A stretch of 53,716 nt of DNA, counting the filler, from Bipalium vagum (lineage: Eukaryota), in NCBI GenBank assembly GCA_037834085.1. It is 3 parts of 3 records of this genome, joined end to end, with 100 filler letters (N's around TTAATTAATTAA, not from the genome) between each part and the next. Parts side by side here need not be neighbours in the genome. Positions count along the whole stretch, not along the records: positions 17,384 to 36,855 come from JBBMKC010002364.1; 2 more parts are not named here. One strand, written 5' to 3'. This document shows positions 5,953 to 46,336 of the stretch, piece after piece (positions within the stretch are counted from its first letter, which is position 1; every line of letters begins with the position of its first letter). The translations under genes were made by a program, and so were the position numbers. Below the pieces are notes generated by a model. That model saw only the letters and a list, made by a program, of their open reading frames with translations, was not told where the DNA came from and did no database searches.

Positions 5953-5983
<31 letters not shown>

Positions 5984-9479: not shown

Positions 9480-9720
9480 GTAATTGGCATTATTATGGAT
9501 AATTTTAAGCTATCTTTCAGGCAATCGATGAATTCTATATTGAAAAATTCTGCCTTTTGGAAGCCAGAAATTCGTGAAGTCATTTTCAAATGGCAACCAC
9601 TGATTGAAAGTGTGTATCCAACAAGGAATGCTTCATTGACCTAAACAAATGATAATCAGTTGGAGCAATGTCTAATGAATACGCCGGATGCTCATTTTGA
9701 TATTTTGGAGCAATTGTCTT
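9480..9720 (-). mobile_element. Mariner transposase C-terminal fragment
   Basis: HPAYSLDIAPTDYHLFRSMKHSL within ORF 9586-9849. Confidence 0.85.
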
Positions 9721-14900: not shown

Positions 14901-15519
14901 TTCTTTTTCTCTTAGAGTTTAAGTATTAATTTAGTTTTGCCACGCACAACTTAATTTGTAAACAAATATTTTACGGACGCTGTAAAGTAATCTGCCTACT
15001 TTTCTGTAAAGTAAATAATTTTTCTCATATTAATTTGTTTCAAATTGCATTTTTCCAGAGCTTCTCGAATTAATTTAAATGTCGTCTTCGTAAAAGTAAG
15101 ATAATCCTTAAAATTTTGATAATTATTATCATTATATTTCAAAAAAAAATTTTTTAATTAATTTTTTTAAAATCCACAGACCAAATTGTAATTTTAACCC
15201 CAAATCAACTTAAAATGTTTACACTATTTATTACGTTTATGATTAGCTAAATAAATAAAATCAATAATTGAAATAATTTTTTTGGTTTTTAGCTTTTTAA
15301 CATAGTTTCTGTTTTTGAATTTTTAATAATGGAAATATAATTATAAAATTAATATAGTTATAAAATGGAAATATATTGTGTTGTATTTTGGATTTTTGTA
15401 AAATAATATATAATTTATAATTTATTATAATCAAATTATCATTATAATCAAATATATATATTTTCAAATAACTTTAAAAAGTAGGCATTTTGATTAATTA
15501 ATAAAATTTTATTCATCTT

Positions 15520-16563
15520 TAGAAATGGATATAAATAAAGAAGAAATGCGATGAAATTTTATTTCTTGAAAGGTAAAAATATCACACAGATAACTAAAAA
15601 GATTAATGCTGTTTATGGTGCGGATACGGTTTCGGATAGAACAGTCCGTGAATGGTTCGCTAAATTTTGTTCCGGAAATATTTTATGTCAAAGACACACC
15701 TCGTTGTGGCCGACCAATCTGTGAAAAAGTCGATAAAATAATTAGGAAGGTTGAAGAAGATGGGAATATAAGCAGCCACGAAATAGCTCAGGAATTTGGA
15801 ATTCATCATGAAACAGTTTTAAATCATTTGGAGAAATGTGGATATACAAAGAAACTGGATGTATGGATACCGCATAATTTGACTGAAAAGAATTCGAAAG
15901 GCCGAATTTCAATATGCCAAACATTGTTGAATAAAAACATGAGCGATCCATTTTTGAAACATCTTATTAAATGTGACGAAAAATGGATCAAGTACGATAA
16001 TAATATACGAAAAAAGGTCTTGGAATAAATGTGGTATGACCTCACAAACTGTGGCGAAACCAAAAATAACTTCAAGGTGGGATTACAAGGGAATAGTCCA
16101 TTATGAATTACTCCAAACAGGACAAAAAATTGACAAATTCCTACAGTTGGCAAGGGTACATCAAATAATTGCAAGAAAGCGTCCCGAATTAATCAATAGG
16201 AAAGGCGTTGTGTTTCTTTTATGACGCAGCAAAAATTGAGCGATCTTGATTGGGAAATTTTGTTATATCCTTATTATAGTCCTGATATACCACCGTCAGA
16301 CTATCATCTTCTTCGCTCATTGCAGAACTCTCTTAATGGTGTAAAATTAAATTCAAAAGAGAATTGCGAAAAAACTCATCTCACCTTTTTGCCAATAAAT
16401 CAAAAAATTTTTACAGTGACGGAATTTTGGCTTTTCCAAAAAAATGGCAAGACATTTTCGATCAAAATGGTAATTATGTAATGTAATAAATTTTCAATTC
16501 GACTTTTTTTCCCAAACTTTTTCATTTTACCAAAATTGGTGGAAACTTTTTAGACTACCCAAT
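15520..16563 (+). mobile_element. Near full-length mariner with frameshifted transposase
   Basis: ORFs 15606-16028, 15973-16224 and 16221-16481 carry WIPHNLTEKN, IKCDEKWIKYDN, WDYKGIVHYELL and YPYYSPDIPPSDYHLLRSL. Right TIR GAAACTTTTTAGACTACCCAATA ends at about 16563. Confidence 0.95.
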
Positions 16564-17383: not shown

Positions 17384-18323
17384 ATATCAAAAGATTTAAA
17401 AGATCGTCATGTTGCAGATGTGGAAATGATACATGAAATAAACAATATTGAAAATCCTACTCCAAGAGAAAAATTAGAAAGAGCTTTAGTAAAATTAATT
17501 TTGAAGGGGAAGGTATTGTTTGAACAAGGCGTACCAAAGATACTAAAGCCAAAGGCTCGCTTAACCAGAGAAGCAAAGAAATTAGTAACAGAAAAACTAT
17601 ATGAAAATTCCAAAGAGCGTACTGCAGAAAAAAGAGAGCAGTTAGCTAAAGAATTACATAAGGAATGTAGAAGATCTAAAAATTTATTGAAAGTTAAAGT
17701 TTTTAATAAAGATGATATTTGGCCAGCAGATTTAACATTTGTACCGGGAGAAAGAGAATATAAAATAATTCTAACGATTATAGATTTATATACAAGATTT
17801 GCTTTTGCAATTCCATTAAAAGATAAAACTGGAATCTCAATCACAAATGAATTTGAAAACATATTTGAAACATATCAACGTATTCCTAATAAACTTTTGG
17901 TTGATAAAGGTTCAGAATTCTACAATGCAAACTTCAAAGAATTTTGTAAAGATAATGAAATTGAAATTTTATCAACCTTTAATGAGGGTAAAGCTGTTGC
18001 AATAGAAAAATTTAATAAAACCTTTAAGAATATGATCTTCAAAAAGTTAACAGAACAAGGTAACCGAAAATGGTTAAATTTATTATTTTATTATTATTAT
18101 TAATATTATAAAAATAAATCAAAGTATAAAGTTTTAGATAGGGTAAGAATTTTTAAATATAAAATAAATTCGGTAAGGGATATACAGCAAAATGGACTGA
18201 TGAAATATTTATTATTAAAAATGTTTTAAAAACCGATCCAATAACATATGAAATAATCGATTTCAATGGTGAAAATATTTTTGGAAGATTTTATGAGAAT
18301 GAGTTACAAAAAACCTTGTTTTA
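17384..18323 (+). pseudogene. Polinton retroviral-like integrase with N-terminal PLA2-like helical segment
   Basis: Open from the gap: ISKDLKDRHVADVEM...EKLERALVKLILKGKVLFEQG, then rve core IWPADL, ILTIIDLYTRFAFAIPLKDK, LLVDKGSEFYN and KAVAIEKFNKTFK. After a break the Polinton-type tail KWTDEIFII...TYEIIDFNGENIFGRFYENELQK follows. Confidence 0.9.
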
Positions 18324-18399
18324 ATTTGTTTTTATATATATATTTTATATATTTATTTATTTTTGTCTTAATATGTATTAATATAAACGCCCGTAGAAT

Positions 18400-19155
18400 T
18401 GGCTTCAATTTGACATATCAGTCGGTAAATGTGATAAAGTATTTCCAAAGTTATTAAGGTTTTGAAATACTTCCAAATTTTATCAAAAATCCCGGATGTT
18501 ATATTTTTTAAAGAAAATCGTCTAAAAAAATCAGGAATAAATTTTTATGTTTATTTCCTTCAAATTTTGAAAAAATAAAATAAAAAAAATGAAATAAAAG
18601 AAAAATAAATATTGAATATAATTTTAAATTCGAAGATCACAAATATTTCATTTTCAAAAAATTGACAATTTAACAAATTTAAAAAATGTCTTTGCATTTT
18701 CAAGAAATGTGACATGCAATTGAAATGGAATTTAAAAATCAAATGCATATATATATTCAATGCAGGGGGAAGCTCTGGAAAAATCAAAGGCTTTGCGAAA
18801 AAAAATTTTATTCCATTTCTAAAACAGAATGGAATTTTGTATACTTTGTAAAGCCAACTTCGTTGGATATTTCTCCTAATCTTCATAGAGGATATATATT
18901 AGAATGTGATTTAGAATATATTGAAGAATGTATTACCTTTACTTTTAGAATTATTACTTTTAGAATTAAGTATACTTTTAATGTATAAATTCTTTTATGA
19001 ATTTATATTACCAAAATTTCCAGATATAGAATTATTGTATTTCGATACGAATGCCTATGTGCTAAATATAAAAAGAAAAGATATTTATAAAGATTTAAAA
19101 GAAGATAACAAATTATTAGACCAATTTGATTTTTCTGATTATTCTCAACTCTGAT
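18400..19155 (+). pseudogene. Collapsed Polinton protein-primed DNA polymerase B
   Basis: GYILECDLEY and LLELSILLMYKFFYEFILPKFPDIELLYFDTNAYVLNIKRKDIYKDL..DQFDFSDY match the ILDLSK..MY.FHY and LYTDTDS regions of pPolB. Most of the gene is deleted. Confidence 0.82.
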
Positions 19156-20300
19156 TATACGTTAAAAAACGTACAGTTAATATTTTATTTTTTAATCTCA
19201 GTACAATCCATTATACCTCCTCTTATTTTTATTTCTATACATTTTTCATGTAATAAAACCACATTTTTTCCGTAAATTTATCATTATTTTCTATATCTAA
19301 AGATATGTTTATTGTGTTTAAAGATAAATTTTCAGGTTGATCTTTTAAATCAAAACAGAATATAGAATATAAATTTTTAAATTCTATTAAACTTAATTGT
19401 GGTTTATTATTGAAATATTCACATGCTTTTATAAAATTCAAATAAACCATATAAATTTCTCCATTCTCAAATTTCATTAGATTTAATGGATAAAAAGTAT
19501 TATCAACTTGTACTCTTAATGACTTAAATTGATCATGTATAAATAAACTATTATTTTTTAAAAGATTGGGTTTATTCTCTCTAAAACCTTTAAAGATATA
19601 AATTGGTTTCTTTTTAACAGAAAATAAATGTAAATTACCTATTTCTCCTTCAGGAAGAGGTCTTTCTATACAAAGTCTTGAAATAGTTTACATTAAATGT
19701 TTTTTCTTCATTAATTAATGATAAAAACTTGAATTAGGATTCTGTATTTAAAGTTATTTTTGGAATAAGTAATTTTAATTCAACTAATTTTATTTTTGGA
19801 GTACCTGTTTACCATAAAAAAATTTTTTTCCACATCTAATCTTCTTGTAAATGTTAATTCTAATTCCATATTATAAATAACTCTACCAAAATATTGTAAA
19901 AATCCAAATATTAATTTTAATGGAAATAAACCCCAAATTCAAAAGTTTTTTACCATCTTTCACAACTGTATTGATTGAATATAATTCTTTTCTTTTTTAC
20001 ATATCCTTTATTACTTTCATATACTTTTTTTTCATCTAATATGCATCCAAAATTTTTCCACAATTATTTTTACCAATCATAACAAAATTAGTAATTGAAT
20101 TTGATGGTTCTAAATATTCAATTCTTTTAATAGGAGCTGACCTGAATGTAAATTGCATTTGTAAATAAATATGGGAAGAAATTGTATAATATTAAAAATA
20201 GAATTATAAGTTGAAAAATAAACTACAGCTAATTCATAGTTTAAATTTCGATCAAGAATTATAAGAGTTTCAAAAGTATAGGTAATTTTTTAGTTTCTAT
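19150..20300 (-). pseudogene. Polinton/adintovirus major capsid protein (hexon-like) remnant
   Basis: GLFPLKLIFGFLQYFGRVIYNMELELTFTR (about 19845-19935), KIKLVELKLLIPKITLN, NSLFIHDQFKSLRVQVDNTFYP and ORF 19235-19477 (YSIFCFDLKDQPENL..INISLDIE) resemble conserved DJR-MCP blocks. Confidence 0.75.
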
Positions 20301-20349
20301 ATAAATTTGAGAACAAAGTCCAAATTTCAAGCAAAGCTCTCATTTAATC

Positions 20350-21144
20350 AGAATTTATATCAAATTTAACAAGTATTTTTTCACGTGTCTTCGGATTAAT
20401 TTTATTTTATTTTCTTAATTTATTCAATGTTCTTAAAATTAAATGATCCAAATTATCATGACCCGCTTTTTTAGCAGCTAATTATTTTCTTAAAGTTATA
20501 AATTGATCAACTAAATGTTTTGGTTTATAAACTCTATCTCCTTGACCATATCTTTTTATTGTTTCTAATTCTTTTATTTTCTTTTAAATATCTATAATAT
20601 GATCTGGCATTTACCTTGTCTTGTATAACTTCACAATTTTTACATGTATTGTTCCATATCTTCTAATTTAAAATCATTATAAATCTTTCCTTCTATCATT
20701 GATTTTAAATCTTTAGTTAATTCAAATTTTATATTTTTATCCTCATTTGTAAAAATTATTTTATCATCTTTTTCACTAGATAAATATGGGATTTTCATTA
20801 AATATTAAAATATTATTTTTATATACTGGTTTTAGTAATTTAGGTATCTTTTCACGAATATACCATTTGATATCGATATTTTCTTGATTAACATCATTTT
20901 GTTCATTTTTACTTTGTTGGTTTCCATCTTCTTCATCTTTTTAATTTTCTAATTTAGCAGAAAATGTTTTTCTGGTTAGTGCATTAGTAATTGGTTTATG
21001 AAATATTGTTAAATCTTGTTCTAAACCTTTTTCTGCTTTCCATTGATTTAATTGATTAATTTCAAATTCTTTTCGTGCATCAATTATTTTTTTTAACTTT
21101 TTTAATTCTCTTTTTATATAACTTTCATTTTTATTCGATTCCAT
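20350..21144 (-). pseudogene. Conserved Polinton/adintovirus-type hypothetical protein (fragmented)
   Basis: N-terminal LEQDLTIFHKPITNAL and C-terminal LVDQFITLRKIIAAKKAGHDNL..LILRTLNKL resemble the FKPIT and LVDRL.LL.ASK.AGN motifs I recall from Polinton accessory ORFs. Confidence 0.5.
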
Positions 21145-21279
21145 TTTTTATAAAAATAAATAAATATGAGATAAGATAAAAGTATTTTATTATTATGGAA
21201 ATTTTTTATTATGGCAAGTTGGTATTTTTGATTTTTGGTATGTCGTAATTTGATAATTTGGTATTTTTGATTTTCCTAC

Positions 21280-22240
21280 CTTGAATGAGAGTTTGAGAGT
21301 CGAGGTTCAAGGTCGGGTGTTACATACTACTAATGATTTCTGTTCGTTTGTTTGTAAGACTTTCTGCCATCAACCAGGAAATTGGAATATCTCATTCGCG
21401 TGGAACTTCGTGTCCTCATTTGCGAAGAACTGTGTCAGGTATGTGAGGATATTTTCATCAGAATTGAACATTCTCCCATCTAAAGAATTTCAAGGGAACA
21501 AAATAAATGAAAACCTGATTGACCAGGTCTGGTGCATATGATGTGGTAGGATGTCCCAAAAAAATCCATCAATTTTTGCCGAGTCGTCAAACTTATATGA
21601 GGTATTGCATTGTCATGGTGAAATAATGGTCTCTTCCTACTTACCAATACTGGCTTCCGAAGCTTCGAATTTTCACTTAATTTGTCCAGTTTTTCACAGT
21701 AAATCTCGGAATTTATCGTTTGGGTTTTGGGTAGTATTTCGAAAAAAGTTACTCCCTGTCAATTCCACCAAACAGAAACCATCGTTTTCTTTTTCTAGAT
21801 GGCACGTTGAGCTATAGCCTGAGTTGATTCATAACTTTTACACTTTAGACACTTTCGAATGAGATTGCGGTAGATAATCCCTCTTTTATCGCTCCTCACG
21901 ATTCTTCTCAGAAATGGGTCATTGTCTTCACTTTTAATTAGTAAATCGCTTATCTCAACACAATGATTAACCTTTTTCTATTAAACAGTTGGGAACAAAT
22001 ACACCAAACTTTAAGACACATCCAAGTGATTTCAAATGAGTTTGGACTGTTCAATTTGCAAGGTTAAATGTATTTCCAATTTTCCAGGTTTTCAAACTCC
22101 GATTTTCTTTTATCAACATCTTTTATTTCCTTATACATCCTCATACTCCAGCGGTCTTCGGTTATGTGGTTTGTCTTCTAACTCGAATTTACCAAAACGG
22201 AACTTGGAAAACCAAATTTGTCAAATTTTAAAATATATAA
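21280..22240 (-). mobile_element. Decayed mariner
   Basis: HTH QIWFSKFRFGKFELEDKPHNRR at about 22160-22220, LVYLFPTV, FHHDNAIPH, GTSYHII/APDLVNQVFIYF and IFQFPGWWQKVLQTNE. Confidence 0.85.
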
Positions 22241-22339
22241 ATATGAAATATATTAAATAAATTTTAAAACTAATTTCTTCATTATTAAAATCTACTAATT
22301 CATTACCACATTTATCATTAACTAGTTAACTAAGTTATA

Positions 22340-22870
22340 TTCGTGTGTAGTCATTTTAAATTTTTTATCAATTCTTCAGAGGTTTCCAATTCCAATCCTC
22401 CAAAATATCCACCAAATGACTTGGATAGTATTTCCAAACGATTCACAATTATTTCACAAAAAATTGGAATTACGTTCTCGTCTTCATCAACAATCTCTTC
22501 GAGTGATGGAAAATTTGAAATGCTACCTCTTTAAACTCTTTGACACCAGATATGTAACTTTTCTTTTAAAGCATTTGGTCAGTTTCCTGTAGCAAAGGTT
22601 TGACTTTTTCTCGAAATAAGAGGAAGAGCTTTAAAGTTCTGTCTCGGGACAATCAGCAGACTTCCGCGTAGTAAAACAAAACTGAATCCTCGTTTCCAAA
22701 ATCTTGACAAACCGAATTGAAGAGGCGGTAGTTAAAAGTACGACCCCTAATCAGGCTGATAATCTTTTTAGACATTCAATCTAGGACATTTTTCATCTTT
22801 GATGACATTGTTTTTGATGCTAAACCATGCCGTGGGAACATTGCAAATTCGGAATATCTTGTTCTAATAA
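22340..22870 (-). mobile_element. hAT transposase fragment (Buster/Charlie; ZBED8/SCAND3-like)
   Basis: MKNVLD*MSKKIISLIRGRTFNYRLFNSVCQDFGNEDSVLFYYAEVC*LSRDRTL matches the LKNVLD..VKIVN.IR.RALN.RLF..LC..MG.EH..LL.HTEVRWLSRG block. Confidence 0.8.
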
Positions 22871-25009
22871 AACAGATAAACGCTGATGTATTTTTTTCTT
22901 TTTGTTTTATATTATTACGTCTTAAATGAAACATCTTTTTTGTAAGAGATGATTGTTTTAAAATTTGACTACTCTATATAATTATCAGAAATGTTTCGAT
23001 AGAAATTTGTTTTAATAATCTCTTTTGGGCACCAAATATGATCCTAAAATATGAGTTTAGTAATTTTACGATTCTATAGGAAAGCACATTTGTCCGCGTC
23101 GAACACAGTCCGTCCTATATAATGATCCAAACATAAGAATTAATAGTTATCGAAAAGGAACGCTCGTTTCTTCACCTTATTCATAATGAGTTTGAAAACG
23201 ATCATGTCGAATTTAGAGTTTTAAATTTTAAAAAGGTAAAAAAATTCTTTCTTATATTTTAATTAAATTAAATTTTTTGGCAAGAGTTAAGAGTAAAGAA
23301 TGAATTTACATTTCTGTAAGGAAACGTCACTGTTAAGTGCTCAAAAACACCTAAAGTCTATTAAAATTAACTAATTAATAATTTGTTTTAATGTGCATAA
23401 ATTTAATTTTAGAATAAATAATAAAAATTTATTTATTTATTATAGATTTAATGTTCTCATTTCATCATTGACCATGACCACCTTTAAGAATATATTATGT
23501 AATGAAATACATTATGGAACACATTTCTTATTAGTAGTAGTAATTTAAATACATTAACAATTATTATAGGAAACCTATGTTTTTATCAGTGGTGGTTGAA
23601 ATACATTAGTAATTACTTGAATCCCATTTTGTTATCAGTAGTAGCAATGGAAATACATTTGCAATTATTAAGGAAATGTATTTTATCATACCATAACCTT
23701 ATATTGCCACCATTAACAAAGATGAGATGGTAGTAGATCATTGTGAAACACACCTCATTTTTGGAATGTGATGGATTAACATTAAATCCTATGCAAGCGC
23801 AGTATTAATTAGCCAAAACTAATGCCTGTTTTATTTGTTGGAATCGAATGCAACTAAATTAATTGCCATTTATTATTAATATTATTATCATTATATATTA
23901 TTACATAATTTATAATTTCTAGTATTTTAGCAAAACCTTATTTTTAGATAACATTTTACTAAGATATACTAGATATGAAAAACTAGATTGATGAAAAACT
24001 TTCAATTTCCACTTTATTATCTTTTAATTGCAAACACATAAATGAATTAAAATTTTAAATAATTGATGATAAAAATGAATTAATCGATTTTTCGATAATG
24101 AAGAAATTAGTTTTAAAATTTATTTAAAACAACTTTAATATTTTAAAATAATTATTTGAAATATCAAAATATATTTTATTTTTAAAATGTTTAAAAGTTA
24201 TATATTAAATATTTATATTAAAAATCAGTGAATTTTGTTGAGATTTTTGATGATAATACAGAAAAAATTAATTTTTATAAAAATTTACTTTCAATTCTGG
24301 AAAAGTAAAATTATAATATAAAATATTATCAACTCCAAGTGATTCTGATTATAATAATTTGATTATATTTCCTAAAACATATTTCTTACAACCAGCTGAT
24401 CAAAATATTCTGTGAGTTTGATTTTTTCAAAAGATATTTATGAAATTTTAAGAGAAAAAGAAAGTGAACTTTCAAGAAAACTATTATGAATTTAAAAAAG
24501 AAATGAATGTTATTTTATCTGATAGAAAGGAAGAAATTCAACTGCCAAATAAATTAGAAATTTTATATAGTTTCGTAATTACCTAAATAGAAATCCAGTT
24601 TTTGATTGAAAATTTTTTCGCAGACTTCTCATTTCAATTTCAAATTTGAGTCTTTATTTTATTGGTTATTTTTTAATAATTTTTACTTTTATATTTTTCC
24701 AAATACTTAATACTCTATATACTTATGGTTGTGGGGTATCATACCTAAGTAGTTATAAATAGATGAAAAAAATTATATAAGTATAAGAGCATTAAATGTC
24801 GAAAATGTTTTTTTTGTCTATATCTTTGAATTTGTTCAATAATTTAGATGAATATTTTAATAATATCTTTTCATTATTAATTAAAAAGTATATTTTACCA
24901 TTGAGAACATATATAATGATGCCATGTTTTCTATCTATCTATTATAATAAAACCTGTTTTAATTATGTACATTAAAAGTCGGAACGAACTTTCCGGAAAA
25001 CCCAATAAA

Positions 25010-25360
25010 TCTACTGGTATTCCTGGGTATCTACCGTATGCTAAGTAGAACTGCAGTCTCTAATGCTTGTATGCTCTAAATTGCACTGACATACTTTGTA
25101 AACATGTCATACTGTTACATACCCCCTGCTTGTAGATTTTAAAGATTAATACATCAACCAAAATTAGCATAACAGATATTTATATCTTGGGACATCAGAT
25201 AAAACTTCTAAAATAGGAAAACCTTTAAAATTATATTTATAAAATCTTTTAAGGGAGTGGGAAAAAATTGTGTCGCATTGCATAATAATAAAAATGCATT
25301 ATAAATTAATCTAATACATAACTATGGAAACTAATTCCAACAATCAATATGGTTACAATT
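25010..25360 (-). mobile_element. Small Gypsy 3'-end remnant just upstream of lectin copy 1
   Basis: On the - strand, FKGFPILEVLSDV (GPY/F-like), then PPT-like AGCAGGGGGTA followed directly by TGTAACAG (LTR start at 25119). Confidence 0.5.
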
Positions 25361-25607
25361 TCAAAAAGAATTAAAAACACAGAAGCATGCTTTTACAACC
25401 ATTTTTCCATGGTATCCATAAAAATATTATCTGAGTTTCTAAAATGAATTGAAGAATCATTGATTATTTTGGTATTTTTCGGCCAATAAAACATAAACAT
25501 TTTTATTTTATTTATATCTCAGCTCCGTGGGAATTTATCATTGTTATTATTTGAAGAATTTGTCAGAAAAAAATTAAAGTTGAAAAAAATATGAAAGGTG
25601 TCCAGAA

Positions 25608-26576
25608 ATGAAATTATTCGTTTTATCAATGCTCGTAGGATACGGTCTCGGATCACTGGGTACTTTTTGGACAATTTTTTTCATAATTTTAAACTTTATT
25701 AATTTTTTATTGTTTAGGGAACACAGTTATTTCTAAGAAAAGAACTACAAATGCCTCTGCCTGTCTCGATACTCGTTATCATAAACATTCTAATGCTGTG
25801 GACGGAAATGTTAACGGAGATAAGCATAAAAGTCTTTTTAACACTAAATAAATACTTTATAAACGCATTTCTTATTTTTAGAATCCTGCTATCACAGTTC
25901 TCTGTCTAATAGTGTAAAATGGTGGTTGGTGGTTCTGGACGTCGTTTCCTCAATAAGTAAAATCAGAATATATGGAAGGACGGACTGCTGCGGTATACTT
26001 TCACTTTTGTTTAACATTGATAAACATTTTAGCATGGAGAAGCAGCAATTTGACACTCCATGCCAGCTACGACAAAGAACTCGATTTCAATAAATCTTCA
26101 AAAAGGTTCTACAGAATTCGTTATTATCAGGGTCCACCGAAAAATCTTAATCAGCCTTTTGAGCTTTTTTTTTCAAGACTAGTTTATTTATTCTCCAATG
26201 ATGACTTCTTATTTTTTCTTATTTTAAGGTGTCCAGAACGATTGCCGTAACAAAAAAATTTGAAGACGAACCGATTCAGATTTGTGAGTTTGAGGTATAC
26301 GGTCATGCTTTAAAGAAGAATAATTCTGCTTTTTGTAAGTCTTTGGCACCAAAGAAATTTGAGCTAATGCCATTCTTAATAGATTCCAATAAACATGGAC
26401 CCATTGATTACGTTGGAAATGTTCAGAGTTTTGATATTACTCAAGGAAAGTCGCTGATTGAATGCGGCATTTCCTGTCTTGAGACCTTGAGATGTTTGTC
26501 GTTCTCTTTTCAGAAGGAAGATGAATGTCAGCTATTTGATCACGGTGGAGGAATGTTCTTCAACCATTTTCAGTAA
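25608..26576 (+). CDS. Secreted F-type lectin (fucolectin/FTP) + PAN/apple domain protein, copy 1 (6 coding exons)
   Basis: Exons 25608-25659, 25718-25831, 25882-25992, 26033-26181, 26229-26334 and 26383-26576 with GT-AG introns of 58, 50, 40, 47 and 48 nt give an open frame. It encodes signal peptide MKLFVLSMLVGYGLG, Ca-site AVDGN, CYH..KWWLVVLD...IRIYGRTDCCAWR (H-x27-RxDx4R, against the canonical H-x26), IQICEFEVYG, and PAN SLIECGISCLETLRCLSFSFQKEDECQLF. Confidence 0.9.
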
Positions 26577-26718
26577 ATGATGAGGCAACATTATTTTTAG
26601 GGAAACTTGTTTTAATTGGATATATTCCCAACTTTTCGTTTTTTGTGTTTTGTTTTGTTTTCATGTTTTTTTCAACACGTTCCGCTTTTTTCATTTCAAT
26701 AAATAATATTCGTCTTTA

Positions 26719-27180
26719 ATATTGGGTCGGCAATTAAACCCGTTCGGTTTTTAAATGAAATGAAATAATTTCTTATTGCCTAAAAAATTTATTAATTTGA
26801 AACAAAATTTTAATGCAGTAGCAATTTTGTATTTCATATGATATATATTAATAAATTATTGTTTAAATAATATCATTATTTAACCAACAATTCAAACTCT
26901 AATATGAAAGATAAAATGGAACATTTCAGACACATTCTTTATATTATTTTAAGTAAGGCAAGTGAACTGCGGATGTTCATTAAAAAAAATTTCCATTTAT
27001 ACAAGAACGATGCTTTAACAGAACTGGTTTGCAAAATTCAGTTCTAGAAATTTTAGCATGGACGATGCGACCCGCTTCGGTCTCTCCAAGGAGATAGAAT
27101 CAGATGATATCAAAGCTATTGTTGATGATAATCCAACCCAGGCGGTTCAGATTATATTCTGAACAATACGTTGATAAATA
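26719..27180 (+). mobile_element. Mariner 5' fragment (TIR + HTH)
   Basis: TIR TATTGGGTCGGCAATTAAACCCGTTCGGTTTTT, then MKDKMEHFRHIL and DDATRFGLSKEIESDDIKAIVDDNP. Confidence 0.8.
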
Positions 27181-27229
27181 AAAATATCCAATGCTTCCTT
27201 TTTAAGAAAAACAATTATTAAAGAGAACA

Positions 27230-28000
27230 CTACCCATAATCTATATTGAATAAAAGTCTAAACCTTAATAATTCCGACTTTCAATAAAATTCCCGTGGAA
27301 TTCTTCATTGCGAGTACTGAAATATTTTTTCCTCAATTTCCACCTCTGCAATCAGATTTTCAGAAGGTTGATTGAAGACTTTTTCTTTAGTCTTTTCCTT
27401 TTTAAACCACTATCGTTCAATATCCTACATAGAGTAGCTGATGATGGATATACGATTTCATCTGAAAAGGTTTACTTAAACATTTATTTGTGGTAAAGAA
27501 TAGTCTTCGGATGTAAAGTAACATATTGTTTTAAACAACGCAACCTCTTATATAATAAAAACAAACGTTACACACTTTAAATCCTTGTGATAAACGAGCA
27601 ACGTTAAGTTTTGGAAAGATATTTAGTTAGTTAATTCCAACTAATTCAAAATTAACATTTCTTTCCCATCCAGGTGTTATATGTAAGTGGAACCCACTTT
27701 CATCAATAGATATTGGATTAGAATCCCTGATATTGCAGATTGAATTACAGTATCGACCCTCGCATCATTGTTTTGATTAGAATTCCTATTTATTGGAATT
27801 TTTGTTATCACTTTCTTCGAATAACAACGTTTGGCTAAAGATAAAATGGATTCGGAAAATTAACAAAAAGATATGATAAAAAGTGACGAGAACTAATATG
27901 ATTTACACGATCCAAGTGGTGTTGCATACTATTGGCTCGAATTCAAAAAAGAAAAGTTGGTTCAATAGCGGAACCGTGCCAGACCGGATGATTTTAATTT
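27230..28000. mobile_element. Two Tc1/IS630-like fragments
   Basis: 27230-27560 (-): YVTLHPKTILY...YPSSATLCRILNDSGLKRKRL (HTH). 27800-28000 (+): DEN*YDLHDPSGVAYYWLEFKKE, resembling Tc3 SDEKKFNLDGPDG..YYW.DLRKE. Confidence 0.5.
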
Positions 28001-28345
28001 TTATTATTACGTATTATGGTTATTACCATTTTGAAGGTTTTCTTGTGAGAATTTAATCCTTTCCATTCCATCATTTTGTTAAGTTCAAAAAATGAGATTT
28101 ATTGAAAATTCTGTCAGATTTGCACCTTTTTCCAAAAATCTGGTGAATAAACGTGACGTCCAAGCTAAGAAATTCTATTTGCCAAAATTTGTTTGATTAT
28201 GAAAAAAATTTTCAGGGTAATATGCTCGAGGATTTATTACTACTGAAGAAGATAGCGGATTATTTAAGGAAATCCAGCATGTCATTTTTATTGGAATCAT
28301 AAAATTTTTGAAATCATCTCTGAATTTATTGAAATAGATGCTAAC

Positions 28346-29031
28346 ATGGCAACCACAACCAGAGAATTTTTAGCTGAATCTCTCAGGCCGGAAATTTTTA
28401 GAAGATCGGACGATATCGAGAAATTCATTATCAAGTGTAAGGACTATTTCAATATGTTAGGTCTCTCAAAGAATGTAAGAGGGCTTGAAGTGATAGGTTT
28501 GATGGAAAACGACCTCAGAAAAAAATATGAGTTGACAGATCCGAAAGCTGATTATGAAGAGCAGCTAAGAAACGTTTTCGGCCGATCAAAATCTAGAGTA
28601 AAGGATCTCAAAGAAGCGTTTGGCTCTAAACGTGGGGAAAAAGATGTCGATGTGTACGTGAAAAGGGTCACTGAATTAGTAGATCGATTAATGCAATATA
28701 CGTGGGACAAAGAGACCCTAAAAAGTGAATTGTTACTGTACTGTTGCATTGATAAAGATATGTGGCAACATCTGCAGATAAAAGAAAAGAAGGACTCAGA
28801 GGAGATTGTAAGTGAAATGAAAAGATTTGACAAAGGCAGAGTAGTACCTGATGAAGTGAATGTTGTCTCTTACAGAGACGCCTTAAAGGTGAACACTAAT
28901 ATAAGAAAGTCAGGACCGCCATACCCAAAACCATATAGTAATAATAATGTCTACAAAAGTGATAATAGGCAGCAACATGTAAGACCACGGCCAGAGACAG
29001 TTTGTTACAGTTGTAACAAAATTGGCACACA
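28346..29031 (+). mobile_element. Gypsy-type gag ORF truncated in its first CCHC knuckle by an LTR insertion
   Basis: MATTTREFLAESLRPEIFRRSDDIEKFI...CYSCNKIG. It is homologous to the gag at 30382-31193. The knuckle is interrupted at 29032 by TGTGTATAC (LTR end). Confidence 0.82.
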
Positions 29032-29795
29032 TGTGTATACTGATTTTCTTTGGACTTTCGAATTCTATATTATTGCCGTGAACATACCAATGTGTTCGGC
29101 GCATATGCCGTTAAAAAGCAATGCATTTTGATATCTACTTGGAGCCACTCAATTAAGCGCTTATTACGGATCCAAGTGTTTATTCTGTACAATGTTTTCA
29201 TAATTGCTAGAGACCACCAAAAGGACACCAGGTGGGATTCCGAATCTTTCCCCGACTTAAGGATCAGTTTGGTTCTAAAGGACTTTCACTGGTCGGGAAT
29301 ACATGATTATGATATTTCCTAAGGGACATAAAATCTGAATTGATTATTTTCCTAGAGTCGATAGAATTTTCCCAGCTTGTTTTTCATCAAGACTGTGACC
29401 AGTCCAGGTTTTACAAAAGTGATGTTGTCAAAACCCCTTAAGTTAGCCGGATGACTACTTTTATCGTCCTCCATCCAAAATACATTTCTCTTTAGGATAA
29501 ACCCACATAGGCACTGATACATATCAGCCTTGGATTTGATTTGATGAACGTTAACCATGTGTTTATCATGAGTAGGGCTCCTTCTTGCCCGGACTTGGTA
29601 TTCCTTAGTGCCTTTTGCGCATCGCAACTTACGTTTTGATATCGCTTTAGCAACAACGCCATTCTCACCTTTCTCGACGAAGAATAACAGTAAAATGTTT
29701 ATTATGGAATAAAAATCACGATCACTAAAAGTTTCAATAAAATGTTTATTTGATCATTAAGTTTCAATAAAATGTTTATTTTGGGATGCTCCACA
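29032..29795 (-). repeat. Putative 764-bp 3' LTR
   Basis: On the - strand it begins TGTGGAGC directly after the purine tract AAAAAAGTGGAGATA (29796-29810) and ends ...GTATACACA. It contains repeated AATAAACATTTTA units. Confidence 0.65.
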
Positions 29796-31193
29796 TATCT
29801 CCACTTTTTTGAAGAATTTTGTCCTCAACAGATGGCATGTAGAACATCATTAGACGTCCATTTGGGGTTTTGCCAATGAAGGCACAAATCTGGATTTCTG
29901 AGCCATAATGGAATACGACGACTTCAGGTAGACTGCCGGACTGGTTGACTTTTTTTTCTTTTTGATAGATTTCCCTTGAAATATGAGCAATAGAGCGTCC
30001 ATATCTCCTCCTTCAATCACAGCTCCCACTTTTTCATCATTCTCCAGATCACTAAAGTCTTTCTTCATGAATTTCCACACTTTTGCCCACTTTTCTTCTT
30101 TGCACCGGGGGCCCCTTTGGGAATCATTGCTGACGACATTTAATATAAGGCTCCTACTAACTCCCCAACTAGCGGAACCCTGTCTTTTGGTTACTGACTT
30201 TGCTCTTCTTCGTATTCGACCAGTCTATCACCGTCAACTTCCTCTTCTAATGCATTTAAATTATTCCTTCTATAAACTTTCTTTGGACGTCTGATCCTCT
30301 GTGCTTGAAAACGTCTACCATCATGAAGGTTCGTATAACGTTCCCTTTCACTATGCCCATTCCTGATGCACCGCCTACACTTTATATTTGGACAATTTCT
30401 CCTAATATGACCCTATCTCTGACATCCGAAGCATACTTGAGGTTTCCTTTTAGGAAAAAAGCCCTGCTAATGTGATCCTGACTCAAACAGGTCCAGCATT
30501 CTATTTGTCTTCTTGCCGTACAGTTACGAGCTAAATGACCCTCCTTATTACACCCATAACATTTAATATTTTCTCTTGCTATTTGTCTTCCTTTAAATGA
30601 GGGTGTTCTGGTGTCATGATTTTGTGTTACCTTCCTTGTAACAACATCTCTGTAACTCCTTACTGCATTCACCGACTTTTTCTGTTCTTTTTCTTTGATG
30701 TCGGTCATCAATCTCATCAAATCTTTAATTTCGCTGTCTTTCTCCAGCTTTCGCATTCTAATTTCTCGTGGGACCTTCTCATCTCCAATGCATTGTACCA
30801 AGAACAGTGCCTCAAGCTTTTCAACTGTCAGATCATGTGACAGTGCTTTCTTTACCAATGATCTTACCTTCCTAAAAAATCCTTCAATGTCCTCACTGCC
30901 TCTTCTACAAATTATTAATTCTTCCCAGTCGTCAACGACATTTTTTTCTTTCTCGAACAATAGACGGACTCTAGCTTCAAATCCGCTTGCCTTCTCAGAT
31001 CTTTCCTCGTAGGCCTCCCATAGATCTTTATGTAACAACGCATTAATCGCTGTTTCTCTTTTCTTTATTGGGGTCTCCTTAATGTCAAAGTATCTTGACA
31101 TCTTTTTATAAAACACCCCATGTCGTCTCCTTTTCTTAGTACACCAGGAGCTATTCTATCTGCGATCGAGTCCGATAGTGTTGATGCCGCCAA
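29032..31193 (-). mobile_element. Gag-only (pol-less) LTR retroelement
   Basis: Frameshifted gag 31193 to about 30330 (LAASTLSDSIADRIAPGVLRKGDDM.../...CYGCNKEGHLARNC, CWTCLSQDHISR and two more knuckles), followed about 550 bp later by PPT and LTR. No RT, RNase H or integrase between them. Confidence 0.75.
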
Positions 31194-31477
31194 GTTATAT
31201 TCTTGAGTACTCATTTGTAAAAAATAATTCAAAGTCAAAGCAATAATAATATATTTCATTAAATCCGATTAACCAAACGCCTTTTATTAAAATTAAATTA
31301 TTTACTTTTTTAAAATTAACCAACATTTATTTTAAATATTTTTTTTTAATTTTAAAAAACGTAACATTATAAATTTTTTAAAAAATTTAAATTAAAAACA
31401 TTTAGTAATTGTTAATTTAGGCCTAAGGTCCTTATTTAAAAAATTCAAGCAAGACAATTGTTCGAATCACTCCTTAT

Positions 31478-31770
31478 ATCCCCCACTCAAGAAGTTTTTA
31501 AACTTCTCAACGTTCCTCTCCAGAATTCTTACATCTGCGTGTTCTATCAAATACAGTCTTCTATGAATCTTTCTTTGATTCGATATGGACCTTCATATCT
31601 ATGCTGACCCTTGTTCCTGAAGGCAACATGTTTTTTAATAAAACATTCTCATTTCCGTCTGACAGAGTGATTGTTATGAGTTCATCAGTTTTAACTACAT
31701 TCTTTTTGTCCATCTGTAAGTGTTCGACTGTCATCGGCTCGTCTTTCCATCATTCTTCTGCTTGGCAGGG
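31478..31770 (-). mobile_element. Gypsy integrase C-terminal (GPY/F) fragment with PPT
   Basis: RYEGPYRIKE, then frameshifted YLIEHADVRILERNVEKFKNF and purine tract GAGTGGGGGA (about 31479-31488). Confidence 0.7.
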
Positions 31771-31911
31771 TGTGTTGTGGAAATATAAAAATATAGACAA
31801 AAATTACTTAGTTTTACCCTTCATCGGCTGCGCAGGTCTTCTTCCTCCAAATCAACATACATACACACATACAACAAACCAACTTAACCAAACACTTTTC
31901 CTTATCTGAGT

Positions 31912-32200
31912 CTAGAGGTTGTAGAGGTAGATATGATATGACTGCGTGATAACAGACGCAATCATATCGGTTGATAACCTATGAATGTCTATCTCCTTGA
32001 AGCCAAGTCGACGGTGTACGTTATCATTCTCTGGATCCCAGGAGCCGATGCACCCGAGATTAATCGTCCAGATATCGATTTTGTTGCGGGTTGCAAGCGC
32101 CATTTGTTGAGTGAAGTCCATATATTTCTTCTGTTTTATCTTTATACCTTCAGAAAAGTTCGAGCATTCGTCATATGGCACTTTTAGGTCGATATCTGGC
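31912..32200 (-). mobile_element. Restriction-like endonuclease C-terminus of an R2/NeSL/Utopia-type non-LTR retrotransposon
   Basis: DLKVPYD...KQKKY...INLGCIGSWDPENDNVHRRLGF...VITQSYHIY matches the RLE signature D.K.PFE / K..KY / IVGALGSWDP.ND..L..LG / S..IY. Confidence 0.82.
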
Positions 32201-32249
32201 AAATATTCATATATATATTCATATACATTCATATATATATATATTCATA

Positions 32250-33170
32250 TTTCTGCATAAAACGTAATAATTTTTACATAGTAATAAATTGCATTTTCTA
32301 TCATCTATTAAAGATTTTACATAAAAATGTACAAAATGGATGGGTATTATATTTTGATTATCATTTACTTCACATAACACATTAGCAAAATATTATTTAG
32401 TTTATTAAATTTTTAAATATCTTGAATTTTCATTGGAAAATTAATATCTCGGATATTTAATTCATTTATAATGGGAATAATAATCTTTCTAAATCGTCTT
32501 CTGCAGGATAAAGATAACCTATAATTGAATATAAAAAACACTAATCATCATTATTTTCAATACTTACAATATAAGAAAATTTAAATGGTAATTTTATATA
32601 AGAAGACCCAAGTAATGATCGATTATTAAAAAAATTTAATTGTAATAAATTTATAAATTTCCATCCAGATCCATGTAATTCTTTTTCTTCAAAAAAGGTT
32701 TTTAATTGCTCCAAATTAAATATTATCGAATTTTGAATTTCATTTTTATCTATTATTCTAGTTGGTTGAGAATAAAAATTATACGTTATTTCTTCATTAA
32801 TTATTGGAATAAAATAATCACATTCGATTGTTATTTTATATCCAATACTTTTTGTTGATGTTCAAAATATTTCATTAATTTTTAAAATAATTTTTATTTA
32901 CTTTTTAAAAATGTTGTTTACTATAACTTTATCTTTTATACATATTTTTAATTTTAGAATTTAGATTGTTTGATATGAATTCAATTACAACTTCTTTTGG
33001 TAATTCATTAAATATTATTATTATTCAATGAGTTATCTTTATGAAGTATAGATTTATTATGAGAAATTAAAGTTGTTTTAGTTTTGAAATGTTTACAACA
33101 TAACTCCCAATACAATACTATAATTTTTGATTTGCTTTTCTCGGCTTTGTTTAATTTTCATGTCATGTTT
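32250..33170 (-). pseudogene. Second Polinton pPolB fragment (N-terminal region with C2H2-like finger)
   Basis: ELCCKHFKTKTTLISHNKSILH; EEKELHGSGWKFINLLQLNFFNNRSLLGSSYIKLPF; IENNDD*CFLYSIIGYLYP; LNIRDINFPMKIQDI*KF. These match the GSGW / GSSYI.LP / N.D..CF.W / I.FP....I.KF blocks of Polinton pPolB. Confidence 0.82.
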
Positions 33171-33219
33171 TTTATATATTTATCTTTCAATATATATTGA
33201 TTCAATAAATGAGAACTGA

Positions 33220-33393
33220 TAATATGATAAGTAGTGGGAAAAACACTGATGAAACTCAAGACCTAAGATTTCAAATAAATATTAAATTTAACAGTTCCAA
33301 AGCGTGGTATTTTTATAAATTTAATAAATATGTGGAACTATTCTTGGGTCTTGGGTTTTCTTATTGTTTTTACCACTAATCTTATCTTTATTA
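33220..33393. repeat. Imperfect foldback / MITE-like inverted repeat
   Basis: GATAAGTAGTGGGAAAAACACTGATGAAACTCAAGACCTAAGA versus the reverse complement of the right arm, GATAAGATTAGTGGTAAAAACAATAAGAAAACCCAAGACCCAAGA. Inner AGTTCCA/TGGAACT also pair. Confidence 0.7.
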
Positions 33394-34079
33394 AATGTTA
33401 ATAATATCAGGCGGAAAATGTTGAGTATAGTGTTTGTTAGTTGGCACTTCCCTCGTCATTTATAGAATTATAATTTAAATAAGTAAATTAAACAAAAATA
33501 TAAAACATTGTTACTTAGTAACACTTTACGGTGAATATTATTTAATACTGATACCCTTTTGGTTTTAATAACATTTCAAAATTTATTTCTTAAGAAAGCC
33601 GATGGAAAACATATTAGCTTTGTTCCATTTTAAATGTAGACCTTAGAAAAAATAAAATACATAGCAGTGGAATATTCATCACTCGGGAATCGTGAAATAA
33701 GCCATGATAAAAGTTTAAATTTCAAAAGCGAAAGGTGTATTGTTATAATAATTGCTCTAGGAGCGGTTACATCTATTGTTTATATAAAAGGAAAAACCTT
33801 TTAACAGATGTTAAAATAATATTTCTTCCTCCGTATGTTTCATACTTCACTGACATGAGACTTGTCTTTAGAAAAAACTTCCAATTTAAAATTTGTGTAG
33901 TGCCCCTAAGACAATTTAATTAGGTATATAAATAAAATGAACTTTTACATGAAACTCAAATTTTATTTATTGTACTTAAATAAACGAAACGCGTTAAATA
34001 AAACATTAAAACCATAAACACAAAAAATGAACATGTCTAATAGAAACAAGGGTCCTTTAATGTGATTTTACTTTGACAT

Positions 34080-35057
34080 TTACTGAAAATGGTTGAAGAA
34101 CATTCCTCCACCATGATCAAACAGATGACATTCGTCTTCCTTCTGGATAGAGAACGACAAACATCTCGAGACCTCCAGGCAGGAAATGCCGCATTCAATC
34201 AGTGACTTTCCTTTATCAATATCAAAACTCTCAACATTTCCAACGAAATCAACGGGTCCATGTTTATTGGAATCTGAAAAGATGATATTAATCTAATTTC
34301 GTTCTGGTCTCAAAGACTTACAAAAGGCAGAATTCTTCTTTTCCAAAGCATGACCGTATACTTCAAACTCACAAATCTGAATTGCATCGTCTTCAAATTT
34401 TTTTGTTACGGCAATCGTTCTGGACACCTTAAAATAAGAAAAAATAACAAGTCATCATTGGAGAATAAATAAACTAGTCTTGAAAAGAAAAACTCAAGCG
34501 GCTGATAAGGATTTTTAGGTGGACCCTGATAATAACGAATTCTGTAGAACCTTTTTGAAGATTTATTGAAATCGAGTTCTTTGTCGTAGCTGGCATGGAG
34601 TGTCAAATTGCTGCTTCTCCATGCTAAAATGTTTATCAATGTTAAACAAAAGTGAAAGTATACCGCAGCAGTCCGTCCTTCCATATATTCTGATTTTACT
34701 TATGGAGGAAATGACGTCCAGAACCACCAACTACCATTTTACACTGTTAGAAAAGTAACTGTGATAGCACGATTCTAAAAATAAGAAATGCGTTTGATAA
34801 ATAAATAAAAAGTATTTATTTAGTGTTAAAAGGACTTTGAGACATATGTCCGTTAACATTTCCGTCCACAGCAATAGAATGTGTAAGGTAACGAACAATG
34901 TGACAAGCAGAGGCATTTGTAGTTTTATTCGTAGAAATAACCGTGTCTGTTAAAATCGAAAATATATAAATTTTCATCTTCTGAAATAAATTGTCCAAAG
35001 AGTACCCGATGATCCGAGACCGTATCCTACGAGCAGTGATAAAACGAATAATTTCAT
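34080..35057 (-). pseudogene. F-type lectin + PAN gene, copy 2, with premature stop
   Basis: Same six-exon structure as copy 1 (ATG 35057, stop 34080-34082), with all splice sites retained. The conserved TGG TGG (WW) in exon 3 is TGG TAG (34731-34733). Confidence 0.88.
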
Positions 35058-35502
35058 TTCCGAACCGCTTTCATTTTTATTTAACTTAAATCTTTACCGT
35101 GACCAATTCTTCAAATAACAAAAATGATAATGTCCCACAGAGCTGAGAATAAATAAAAAAAATGTTCTCATTTTATTGGCCAGAAAATTAAAAAAATAAA
35201 TATGTTTACTTGATATTTTATAACTAAATCAGAACATGGTGATTGTAAACGCACCACTTATTGTATGGATTAAAGTAATATTGAAGACACGATTTGTTTT
35301 TATCCTTTGTCAATTTGCAGCCAAATTAAGTTCGAAATGTCGGAGTTGGCAATCCAAAGTTCGTCATTTGATGTTTTAAATAATTCAACTCGAAAGTTAT
35401 TCGTCTTGTTTTACTGCGTAAATTACGAAATTACTTTTTACGGTGCATATTTAAATATCTGATTACAATATAAATTGACATTCCTAGAGCCACTTTCTAA
35501 AC

Positions 35503-36240
35503 AATGGATATTTCCAAAATTTGTTTCATTCTTGAATACGATTACCGTTGTGGAAGTAATGAAAGGCAAGCGGTTCGAAATACGAGTAAAGTATTTGGTA
35601 TCAAGATCATCAATGAACGAATGGTGCAGCGATGGTTTTGGACATTACGTAGGAAAAATTTCTGTCTTCAAAATATGCCACGTGGTTGACCTGAGACGAA
35701 GGTGAATCAAGCTGACCTGAAAGTTGTAGTGGAGAAGGATCCTTTTCAAAGTACTCAAAAGTTAGCGTTTAAATTCAATATCTCCATCTCTACAATAACT
35801 AATCATTCAAACCAAATTACCAAAGCTAAAAATCTTGACCAATGGTAATTCGTGAATTACGCGAATACCAGAAAACAAAGCTTTTTCAAGCTTCTCTTTC
35901 TTTGTTATTACGACAGAAAGGCAAACCATTTCTTCAACGTATTCTAACATCTGACGAAAATTGAATTATATGCAATAATCGCATGCAATTATCTAAATGG
36001 TTGGATAAAGATGAAGAGATCAAACTTTATCAAAAGCCGAACGTTCTCAAAAATATGGTATCCACCTGGTCGTTCAGTGCGGGTATTATCCGCTATACCT
36101 TTTAAAACCAGAAAATTCTATTACAACAGAAACATACAGCACCGAATTAAGGAATATGATGATGTTGCTGGCTATTAAGAGATTGGTCGATCGAGAACAA
36201 GTAATTTTCTTGCAAGACAACGCTCGACCACGAAGACAAA
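35503..36240 (+). mobile_element. Decayed mariner
   Basis: MDISKICFILEYDYRCGSNERQAVRN..ERMVQRWF, PFLQRILTSDEN, WSFSAGIIRY and IFLQDNARP. Confidence 0.88.
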
Positions 36241-36289
36241 ACTAATAACTATATTAGAATAAAAATTGGTACATAAGTAAATGAATGTA

Positions 36290-36620
36290 TCAAGTTATTA
36301 TTCGATGTGATCACCATTATTGGTCACAACCGCCTAGAGCTGGCCTCAGAATGTGTTGCATGCTCGCTTGGCTTCATCCCTGTCCAATTTCGTATTTACC
36401 TGTATAAGTCCATCCTGTACAGACTTAATTGTGTTTGAATTTAATGTGGTTTTGAGTTTGTGATTAAACTTGTGACTCAACCTTGCAATCCGGACTGGAG
36501 GGAGGCCATAAATCAGATGACCAATGGTAGGGCAGATTTTTGTAAAGCCATGCTTGTGTTTTTCTTGCATTATGAGCACGAGCCGAGTCTTGTTGGAAGA
36601 CATACGATGTATCACCGGAT
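36290..36620 (-). mobile_element. maT/DD37D-like transposase C-terminal fragment
   Basis: QQDSARAHNA-like motif and KLDRDEAKRACNTF*GQL*AVVTNNGDHIE*. Confidence 0.72.
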
Positions 36621-36855
36621 AGATATAAATATTTTGGGTTTATAATTTAAAATTGGTAACAGTAAAGTTACTAAAAATAGAAAATGGTATTAAATAGTAA
36701 TAATAAAGCTTATTTTAGGAAAACAAAATATATTAAATTATATTAAAAAATAAAACAATAGAAAAAATCTTAATCTTTTGAACAATATAAATTTATTTTT
36801 CGAATATACGCCTTTTATTAAATGAATACAAAATTTATTCAAATATATATTTTCA

Positions 36856-46207: not shown

Positions 46208-46336
46208 TCACCATCAAAGAGTTGCGCTTACCAAAGGTTCGCAGAATACCAAAGTGCACGCAAATTCACTCTACAGAAATTTGCATGCACTTTGGTATTC
46301 TGCGAACCTTTGGTAAGCCCAACTCTTTGATGGTGA
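46208..46336. repeat. Near-perfect hairpin: 59-bp arms, 11-nt loop
   Basis: 46208-46266 versus 46278-46336 match at 57 of 59 positions as reverse complements. Confidence 0.95.

What the first reader, a model, noticed from the sequence alone, without database searches (positions are those of the whole stretch)
25953..26138. 186-bp perfectly identical tract (including an intron) between otherwise diverged lectin copies
Seen: 25953-26138 is identical to the reverse complement of the matching part of copy 2 (about 34518-34703), including the whole 40-nt intron 3. Intron 4 differs by one base, whereas introns 1 and 5 and exons 2 and 6 are clearly diverged. The tract covers the RTDCCAWR sugar-binding motif. 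Inference: recent gene conversion between inverted repeats homogenises the binding core, and the pseudogene copy could act as donor or recipient.
Basis: partly seen in the sequence, partly recalled or inferred. Interest (0 to 1): 0.7.

Follow-up and report, generated by a model that had tools for sequence, protein, structure and literature searches.

The report
Gene conversion between inverted fucolectin copies
Two neighbouring, head-on copies of a predicted sugar-binding (F-type lectin) gene in an AT-rich, probably invertebrate genome share an exactly identical 186-base piece, intron included, most likely because one recently copied it from the other, which is a well-known process that appears to have patchworked the whole gene family.

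Summary
It is not a collapse: the sequencing-run contig over intron 3 has depth 52 against 25-31 for single copies. It exceeds chance even with the family's slow local rate (0-3 of 20,000 simulations; GENECONV-like global p 0.003, but 0.09 on silent sites). Recent gene conversion is the best reading. Two corrections: the tract holds only the RxDx4R half of the binding motif, while the His and four of five predicted loops lie outside and differ; and it is not unique. Introns 2-4 of the pair are nearly identical (3/137 versus 31/106 in introns 1 and 5), the six close paralogues are mosaics (PHI p 0.0005), and the tract's exon part has low silent divergence within the subfamily (0.07) but not towards distant paralogues (0.54). 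Direction is undeterminable. Tract length, intron inclusion and inverted layout match published Caenorhabditis cases; this scan noted similar tracts in other genomes. Ordinary process, mildly interesting family.

The parts
25953..26138 (+). Identical tract in copy 1: last 40 nt of exon 3, intron 3, first 106 nt of exon 4 (codons 79-126)
   Evidence: alignment; only two 100% full-length matches among 18 in the genome
34518..34703 (-). Identical tract in copy 2
25608..26576 (+). Copy 1, open frame of 241 codons: signal-like N-terminus, F-type lectin domain, PAN domain; exons 25608-25659, 25718-25831, 25882-25992, 26033-26181, 26229-26334, 26383-26576 (predicted from GT-AG sites and frame; no RNA)
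   Evidence: gene model; domains
34080..35057 (-). Copy 2, same six exons (35057-35006, 34946-34836, 34774-34664, 34623-34475, 34427-34322, 34273-34080), one in-frame stop
25993..26032 (+). Intron 3 of copy 1, 40 nt, identical to 34624-34663 of copy 2
   Evidence: run contig 25997-26067 with 0 differences at depth 52.1
25832..25881 (+). Intron 2 of copy 1, nearly identical to that of copy 2 (2/50 plus one indel), outside the tract
26182..26228 (+). Intron 4 of copy 1: one difference to copy 2, none to paralogue L002
34731..34733 (-). Premature stop (TAG) in exon 3 of copy 2, 29 bases outside the tract; not checked in reads

Best explanation
The 186 identical bases are most likely a recent interlocus gene-conversion tract between two neighbouring inverted F-type lectin + PAN paralogues, one of several such inferred patches in a mosaic gene family. 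Shown: both copies carry the same sequence; their inner introns are nearly identical while outer introns, flanks and predicted binding loops differ; different gene segments give incompatible trees. [quoted passage not shown] Inferred: repeated short conversions start most easily in the conserved exon 3-exon 4 framework, run through the 40-60-nt introns, and mostly stop at the very divergent loop-coding blocks, so the framework is homogenised within the subfamily while the loops keep old differences. Direction and age are unknown; zero differences in 186 bases bounds the divergence since the event below about 1.6%, against about 19% silent divergence elsewhere in the coding region of this pair.
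For: Exact identity including an intron. Rate-aware nulls 0-3 of 20,000. GENECONV-like permutation on 286 polymorphic sites of six paralogues: run of 29, pair p 0.0003, global p 0.0027, the only one of 15 pairs under 0.05 in the gene body. Private changes of the pair inside the tract: 0 against 6.3 expected, Fisher p 0.007 (boundaries chosen post hoc). Introns 2-4 3/137 versus introns 1+5 31/106, p 1e-9. PHI p 0.0005; flank and tract trees reject each other by AU test. Depth: 52.1 and 66.1 for the two contigs over intron 3, i.e. 24-25 per copy if both copies hold it and 46 or 38 if only one does, against 25-31 for single-copy contigs. No intrinsic constraint seen: silent divergence of the tract's exon parts to distant paralogues is 0.54, like other exons (0.32-0.63); intron 3 diverges 0.28 to distant paralogues, like introns 2, 4, 5 (0.24-0.27); no RNA fold (z 0.01).
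Against: On silent sites alone the global p is 0.087 (pair 0.008), and PHI on introns alone gives p 0.075. Intron 3 is nearly the same in four of six close paralogues (L002 and L004 differ by one substitution plus indels). The tract does not reject the tree of its neighbouring segments (AU p 0.079). Few derived states unite the pair: one T missing in intron 3; the TGG codon is also in distant paralogues L023/L024 and may be ancestral. The single run is probably the assembly's own source and gives contigs only; no piece bridges a tract edge with copy-specific letters. A third, unassembled donor or a duplication followed by replacement of the gene ends would give a similar picture.
Confidence: 0.82

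Rival explanations
1. Chimeric duplication: the two copies share a recent ancestor for the gene core (intron 2 to exon 5), and the ends and loop blocks were later replaced by recombination with other paralogues, or both took the patch from a third copy. Still recombination, but not a direct exchange between these neighbours.
For: Copy 1 has L006-type flanks on both sides and an L002-type intron 5/exon 6; copy 2 has an L005-type intron 5. Introns 2-4 are all near-identical in the pair.
Against: Silent differences in exon 3a (5/15) and exon 4b (3/10) between the identical introns are as high as elsewhere, so several replacements are needed; no third copy with this intron 3 among 18 matches; depth fits two copies.
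Confidence: 0.08
2. Slow local evolution plus chance: the stretch is conserved in the whole family by purifying selection and a minimal intron, and the pair simply has had no change there.
For: Only 5-8 differences separate copy 1 from L002 and L004 in the tract; silent-only global p 0.087.
Against: Rate-aware nulls 0-3 of 20,000; silent sites and intron 3 diverge normally towards distant paralogues; protein-level selection does not hold silent sites.
Confidence: 0.06
3. Assembly artefact: bubble removal merged slightly different sequences, and the merged piece was written into both copies.
For: Short-read, fragmented assembly (272,664 contigs; contig ends overlap by 77 bases); the run's own contigs do collapse exon 4 into one path (piece 7).
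Against: With 77-base words only a difference at about 26030-26061 could hide (my inference), and that part lies in a contig at two-copy depth. The collapsed exon-4 contig (107.2) fits the assembled copies at 27-30 per copy. Both flanks of copy 1 match L006, which supports the pairing as assembled.
Confidence: 0.04

Closest known systems
Interlocus gene conversion in Caenorhabditis paralogues, e.g. inverted hsp16-48 and hsp70-7/-8, zim/him-8 (PMC3966223; section 4 part 1 and passages read)
   Same: Tracts cluster at 50-200 nt, often include compact introns, and occur between adjacent inverted genes; pseudogenes can take part.
   Different: Here a lectin family with very divergent loop blocks next to the tract; one genome only, no population data.
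Pacific oyster bindin F-type lectin repeats (as reviewed in PMC5712786; passages read; primary papers not held)
   Same: F-type lectin domains diversified at loops round the fucose pocket and recombined through an intron in the middle of the domain.
   Different: Bindin: 1-5 tandem repeats in few single-copy genes, one variable intron, alternative splicing, positive selection shown. Here: single lectin domain + PAN in many separate genes, exchange between paralogues; loop pN/pS is 0.5-1.0, so positive selection is not shown; function unknown.
GOT1p1/p2 paralogues of the copepod Tigriopus californicus (PMC3728101; abstract and outline only); Drosophila Hsp70 and Amy palindromic pairs (PMC3924832; passages)
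   Same: Mosaic of low- and high-divergence blocks under ongoing conversion; palindromic layout favours conversion over crossover.
   Different: Those are enzymes or chaperones with population or cross-species evidence; this is a recognition-type protein family in one assembly.
F-type lectin + PAN proteins of molluscs and cnidarians (ESM Atlas clusters)
   Same: Same two-domain build and length (230-262 aa).
   Different: Feature scores 0.78-0.81 are leads only; no sequence homologue was found.

Membership tests
Interlocus gene conversion tract | Identity run longer than chance between diverged paralogues | tested here: met
   0/100,000 uniform; 0-3/20,000 rate-aware; global p 0.0027
Interlocus gene conversion tract | Identity at silent and intron sites, not only amino acids | tested here: met
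   0/27 silent sites and 0/40 intron bases, against 23.5/122 silent differences outside; silent-only permutation pair p 0.008 but global p 0.087
Interlocus gene conversion tract | Tract tree differs from the tree of neighbouring sequence | tested here: inconclusive
   Rejects flank, exon 1, exon 3a and intron 5/exon 6 trees, but not those of exon 2/intron 2 and exon 4b-exon 5 (AU p 0.079)
Interlocus gene conversion tract | Present in two real genomic copies (not collapse) | tested here: met
   Two-copy depth for 25962-26067 in one run's contigs; edges not bridged by reads
Interlocus gene conversion tract | Non-reciprocal transfer with known donor; paralogues closer than orthologues across species or shared polymorphism | not testable with these tools
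   No relatives held for this genome; one run listed
F-type lectin (fucolectin) | His followed by R-x-D-x4-R/K | tested here: met
   His59 and RTDCCAWR with 27 residues between; motif as given in PMC5712786; exon 3 aligns to eel agglutinin 1k12 residues 49-83 with one gap, E 0.057; all 6 of 6 structure hits are fucolectin-type proteins by name or, for 1k12, FBP32 and Sm-hPAF, by my recall
F-type lectin (fucolectin) | Cation motif h2DGx and C-terminal Cys-Glu | tested here: met
   AVDGN in exon 2 and ICEFEV in exon 5 in all six close copies; motif definition
F-type lectin (fucolectin) | Jelly-roll F-type fold; Pfam cut-off for the whole domain | not tested
   Only single-exon pieces were scanned: F5_F8_type_C_2 E 0.0014 and PAN_1 E 0.0013, both below curated cut-offs; the spliced protein was not folded
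F-type lectin (fucolectin) | Fucose binding | not testable with these tools
   Needs a binding assay
Bindin-type combinatorial diversification | Positive selection at pocket loops | tested here: inconclusive
   Loop pN/pS 0.53-0.96 (all loops 0.77) against 0.22 in the framework; never above 1
Bindin-type combinatorial diversification | Tandem lectin repeats with alternative splicing in a single-copy gene | tested here: not met
   Single lectin domain + PAN per gene in all six full close copies; splicing not testable

The most novel reading that the evidence does not exclude
The exon 3-exon 4 framework is a subfamily-wide conversion hotspot that works as a hinge: it keeps dispersed F-type lectin + PAN paralogues recombination-competent so that blocks coding for the variable binding loops are shuffled among genes and pseudogenes, a germline route to a varied sugar-recognition repertoire that parallels oyster bindin but runs between genes.
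Probability: 0.25. Interest if true: 0.55.

Novelty: new member of a known kind. Interest (0 to 1): 0.3.

Why it matters
As a single tract it is a textbook event. Its value is practical and comparative: trees of this lectin family are unreliable because segments have different histories, and the family offers a compact case (introns of 40-70 nt, loops mappable to known structures) for asking whether conversion spares recognition loops through selection or through lack of homology. Two searches for F-type lectin or fucolectin together with gene conversion listed 1 and 2 papers; from the listings and the passages of one none reports conversion between F-type lectin genes, but the library lacks most subscription journals, including the primary bindin paper.

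Tried and rejected
No RNA holder listed for the gene, so expression is untested. Protein homologue searches with the exon 5-6 frame and the exon 3 frame found nothing (weak, short queries). RNA structure in the tract: none (z 0.01). Intrinsic nucleotide constraint: rejected, normal divergence to distant paralogues. Net inversion of the spacer by crossover in the tract: not supported, since both flanks of copy 1 match L006. Positive selection at loops: not shown. Subfamily-wide hotspot without the two window copies: 4/40 versus 35/114 variable silent codons, Fisher p 0.006, but p 0.12 after correcting for scanning, so it rests partly on the pair. A 554-base identical tract in contig L007: two contigs run into its first 77 bases, but only one contig leaving it was found, so its copy number is unresolved and it is not counted. 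Organism not identified (ORF lists show mostly mobile-element remnants). Literature searches gave nothing on point. Two papers asked for by recalled DOI were not held; nothing was read of them. No supplements were consulted.

Full report
Observation. The window is a pack of three stretches; both gene copies lie in the middle one (17384-36855 = contig C2364). A self-comparison finds one long non-repetitive inverted match, 25464-26710 against 35199-33959 at 85%. The global alignment has an identical run of exactly 186 bases, 25953-26138 against 34703-34518; the next runs are 61 and 38.

The gene. Six exons with five GT-AG introns of 40-61 nt give an open 241-codon frame in copy 1 and the same frame with one TAG (Trp69) in copy 2; the model rests on sequence alone, as no RNA run is listed. 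The product has a hydrophobic N-terminus, the motifs AVDGN, CYH..RTDCCAWR and ICEFEV, and a C-terminal PAN-like part. Exon pieces hit F5_F8_type_C_2 (E 0.0014) and PAN_1 (E 0.0013), below cut-off; the exon-3 piece aligns to the eel agglutinin 1k12 (E 0.057) among 6 weak structure hits; the Atlas's best clusters are fucolectin + PAN proteins of molluscs and cnidarians at 0.78-0.81, leads only. The motifs fit the F-type lectin definition in PMC5712786 (passages). Loop names are my mapping: CDR1, 2 and 4 from residues named in that review, CDR3 and 5 by inference; no structure was predicted.

The family. A search of the own genome returned 30 of 30 scored matches (a lower bound): six full-length close copies at 82-100% (copy 1 = L001, copy 2 = L003, L002, L004, L005, L006), fragments of probably two more (L007, L008, L010, L017, L022) and a distant group at 67-76%. 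Homology among close copies ends within about 0.5 kb of the gene, so I treat them as paralogues, not alleles. All statistics below use the six full close copies; distant loci were used only where stated (11 of them, 2).

Is it more than chance? Uniform shuffling: 0 of 100,000. But the stretch is slow in the whole subfamily: it holds 6-18% of the differences in the other 14 pairs although it is 19% of the columns. With site rates from the other four paralogues, 0-3 of 20,000 simulations reach 186 in 8 settings. A GENECONV-like test written here gives pair p 0.0003 and global p 0.0027 on 286 polymorphic sites, the only one of 15 pairs below 0.05; on 143 silent sites it gives 0.008 and 0.087. The pair has 0 private changes in the tract against 6.3 expected (Fisher p 0.007, boundaries post hoc). 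So the tract is real but far less extreme than the pair alone suggests.

Is it an artefact? Contig ends overlap by 77 bases, which points to a short-read graph assembly. One public run holds the stretch (probably the assembly's source, contigs only). Contigs unique to one copy have depth 25-31. Two contigs with 0 differences cover 25962-26026 (66.1) and 25997-26067 (52.1); their words occur in 2.74 and 2.12 assembled copies, giving 24-25 per copy, whereas without copy 2 the figures would be 38 and 46. The collapsed exon-4 contig at 107.2 fits 27-30 per copy. No listed piece bridges a tract edge (8 of 22 pieces shown), and the stop in copy 2 was not seen in reads. Both flanks of copy 1 group with L006, which supports the assembled pairing and argues against a net inversion.

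What the tract covers. Codons 79-126: the RTDCCAWR segment and the following framework. His59, the cation motif and the other four loops lie outside, and 37 of 240 residues differ between the copies, many in those loops. The two residues after Cys-Cys vary in the family (AW, AW, AQ, TS, EH, EH), so the pair shares one loop variant, though TGG also occurs in distant paralogues and may be ancestral. The wider core is also homogenised in the pair: introns 2-4 differ at 3/137 bases, introns 1 and 5 at 31/106 (p 1e-9), while exon blocks between them keep silent differences (5/15 and 3/10). This looks like several short tracts that spared the loop blocks.

Family-wide pattern. PHI gives p 0.0005 on 115 informative sites (introns only, p 0.075). 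Segment trees conflict: the 3' flank joins copy 1 with L006, intron 5/exon 6 joins it with L002, the core joins it with copy 2 and L002; AU tests reject most cross-fits, but the tract does not reject the trees of exon 2/intron 2 or exon 4b-5 (p 0.079). L005 and L006 share intron 3 exactly (0/41) and intron 2 nearly (2/52). L008 and the L017/L010 path share a 201-base stretch between diverged blocks (23 and 13 substitutions), and a contig with L008's letters there has depth 68.1, near the 2.43 copies expected if two genes hold it. Silent divergence in the tract's exon parts is 0.07-0.13 within the close group against 0.20-0.34 elsewhere, but 0.54 to the distant group, like other exons; 4/40 against 39/104 invariant codons vary silently (Fisher p 0.0007, scan-corrected 0.017; without the two window copies 0.006 and 0.12). 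Loops have pN/pS 0.77 and raised silent divergence (0.39 against 0.18; multi-hit codons inflate this estimate). No RNA structure explains the conservation.

Mechanism. Shown: identity, two-copy depth, mosaic trees. Inferred: homology-directed repair between neighbours 8 kb apart, resolved without crossover, seeded in conserved framework and stopping at divergent loop blocks. Whether selection or lack of homology spares the loops is open, as are direction and any donor role of the pseudogene.

Comparison. PMC3966223 (section 4 part 1 read) gives 50-200 nt as the usual tract range in Caenorhabditis, with introns included in 15% of events in one survey and adjacent inverted genes among the cases; PMC3924832 (passages) describes palindromic Hsp70 and Amy pairs; PMC3728101 (abstract) describes divergence islands under conversion. 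Oyster bindin recombines F-type lectin halves through an intron (PMC5712786). This scan's own notes list similar intron-including or inverted tracts in other genomes (unchecked). Verdict: a real, ordinary conversion tract in a mosaic lectin family; interest 0.3.

Noticed in passing
window 28268-29131 (+) and 30382-31155 (-): Two LTR-retrotransposon gag-like open frames in the spacer between the lectin copies; the second has a zinc knuckle (Pfam E 3.6e-06).
   Followed up: partly
window 17384-18103 (+), 19235-19687 (-), 32541-32861 (-): Polinton/Maverick-like remnants on the same contig: integrase core (E 3e-12) and double-jelly-roll capsid domain (E 5e-08); the third frame resembles a Polinton polymerase piece by my recall and has no Pfam hit. 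Observed only.
   Followed up: partly
window 25711-25720: Copy 1 has lost the intron-1 acceptor used by the other close copies and has an AG three bases upstream, which would add one codon and keep the frame.
   Followed up: partly
L008 and L010, exon 3 / intron 3: L008 has a deletion of about 30 bases removing the intron-3 donor; L010 has a 7-base frameshift in exon 3 and an intron 3 whose 5' half matches L004 and 3' half L005/L006, a likely breakpoint inside the intron.
   Followed up: partly
L009, L011, L012 and L013/L014: Distant paralogues vary or break the RxDx4R motif, and several are broken genes; L013/L014 are two halves about 1.6 kb apart on one contig.
   Followed up: no
window 46208-46336: A 129-base near-perfect palindrome (92% self-match), possibly a small foldback element.
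   Followed up: no
window 923-2708 (-), and 3246-16481: Gypsy-like reverse transcriptase and integrase fragments and several mariner-like transposase fragments in the first stretch (named by recall).
   Followed up: no
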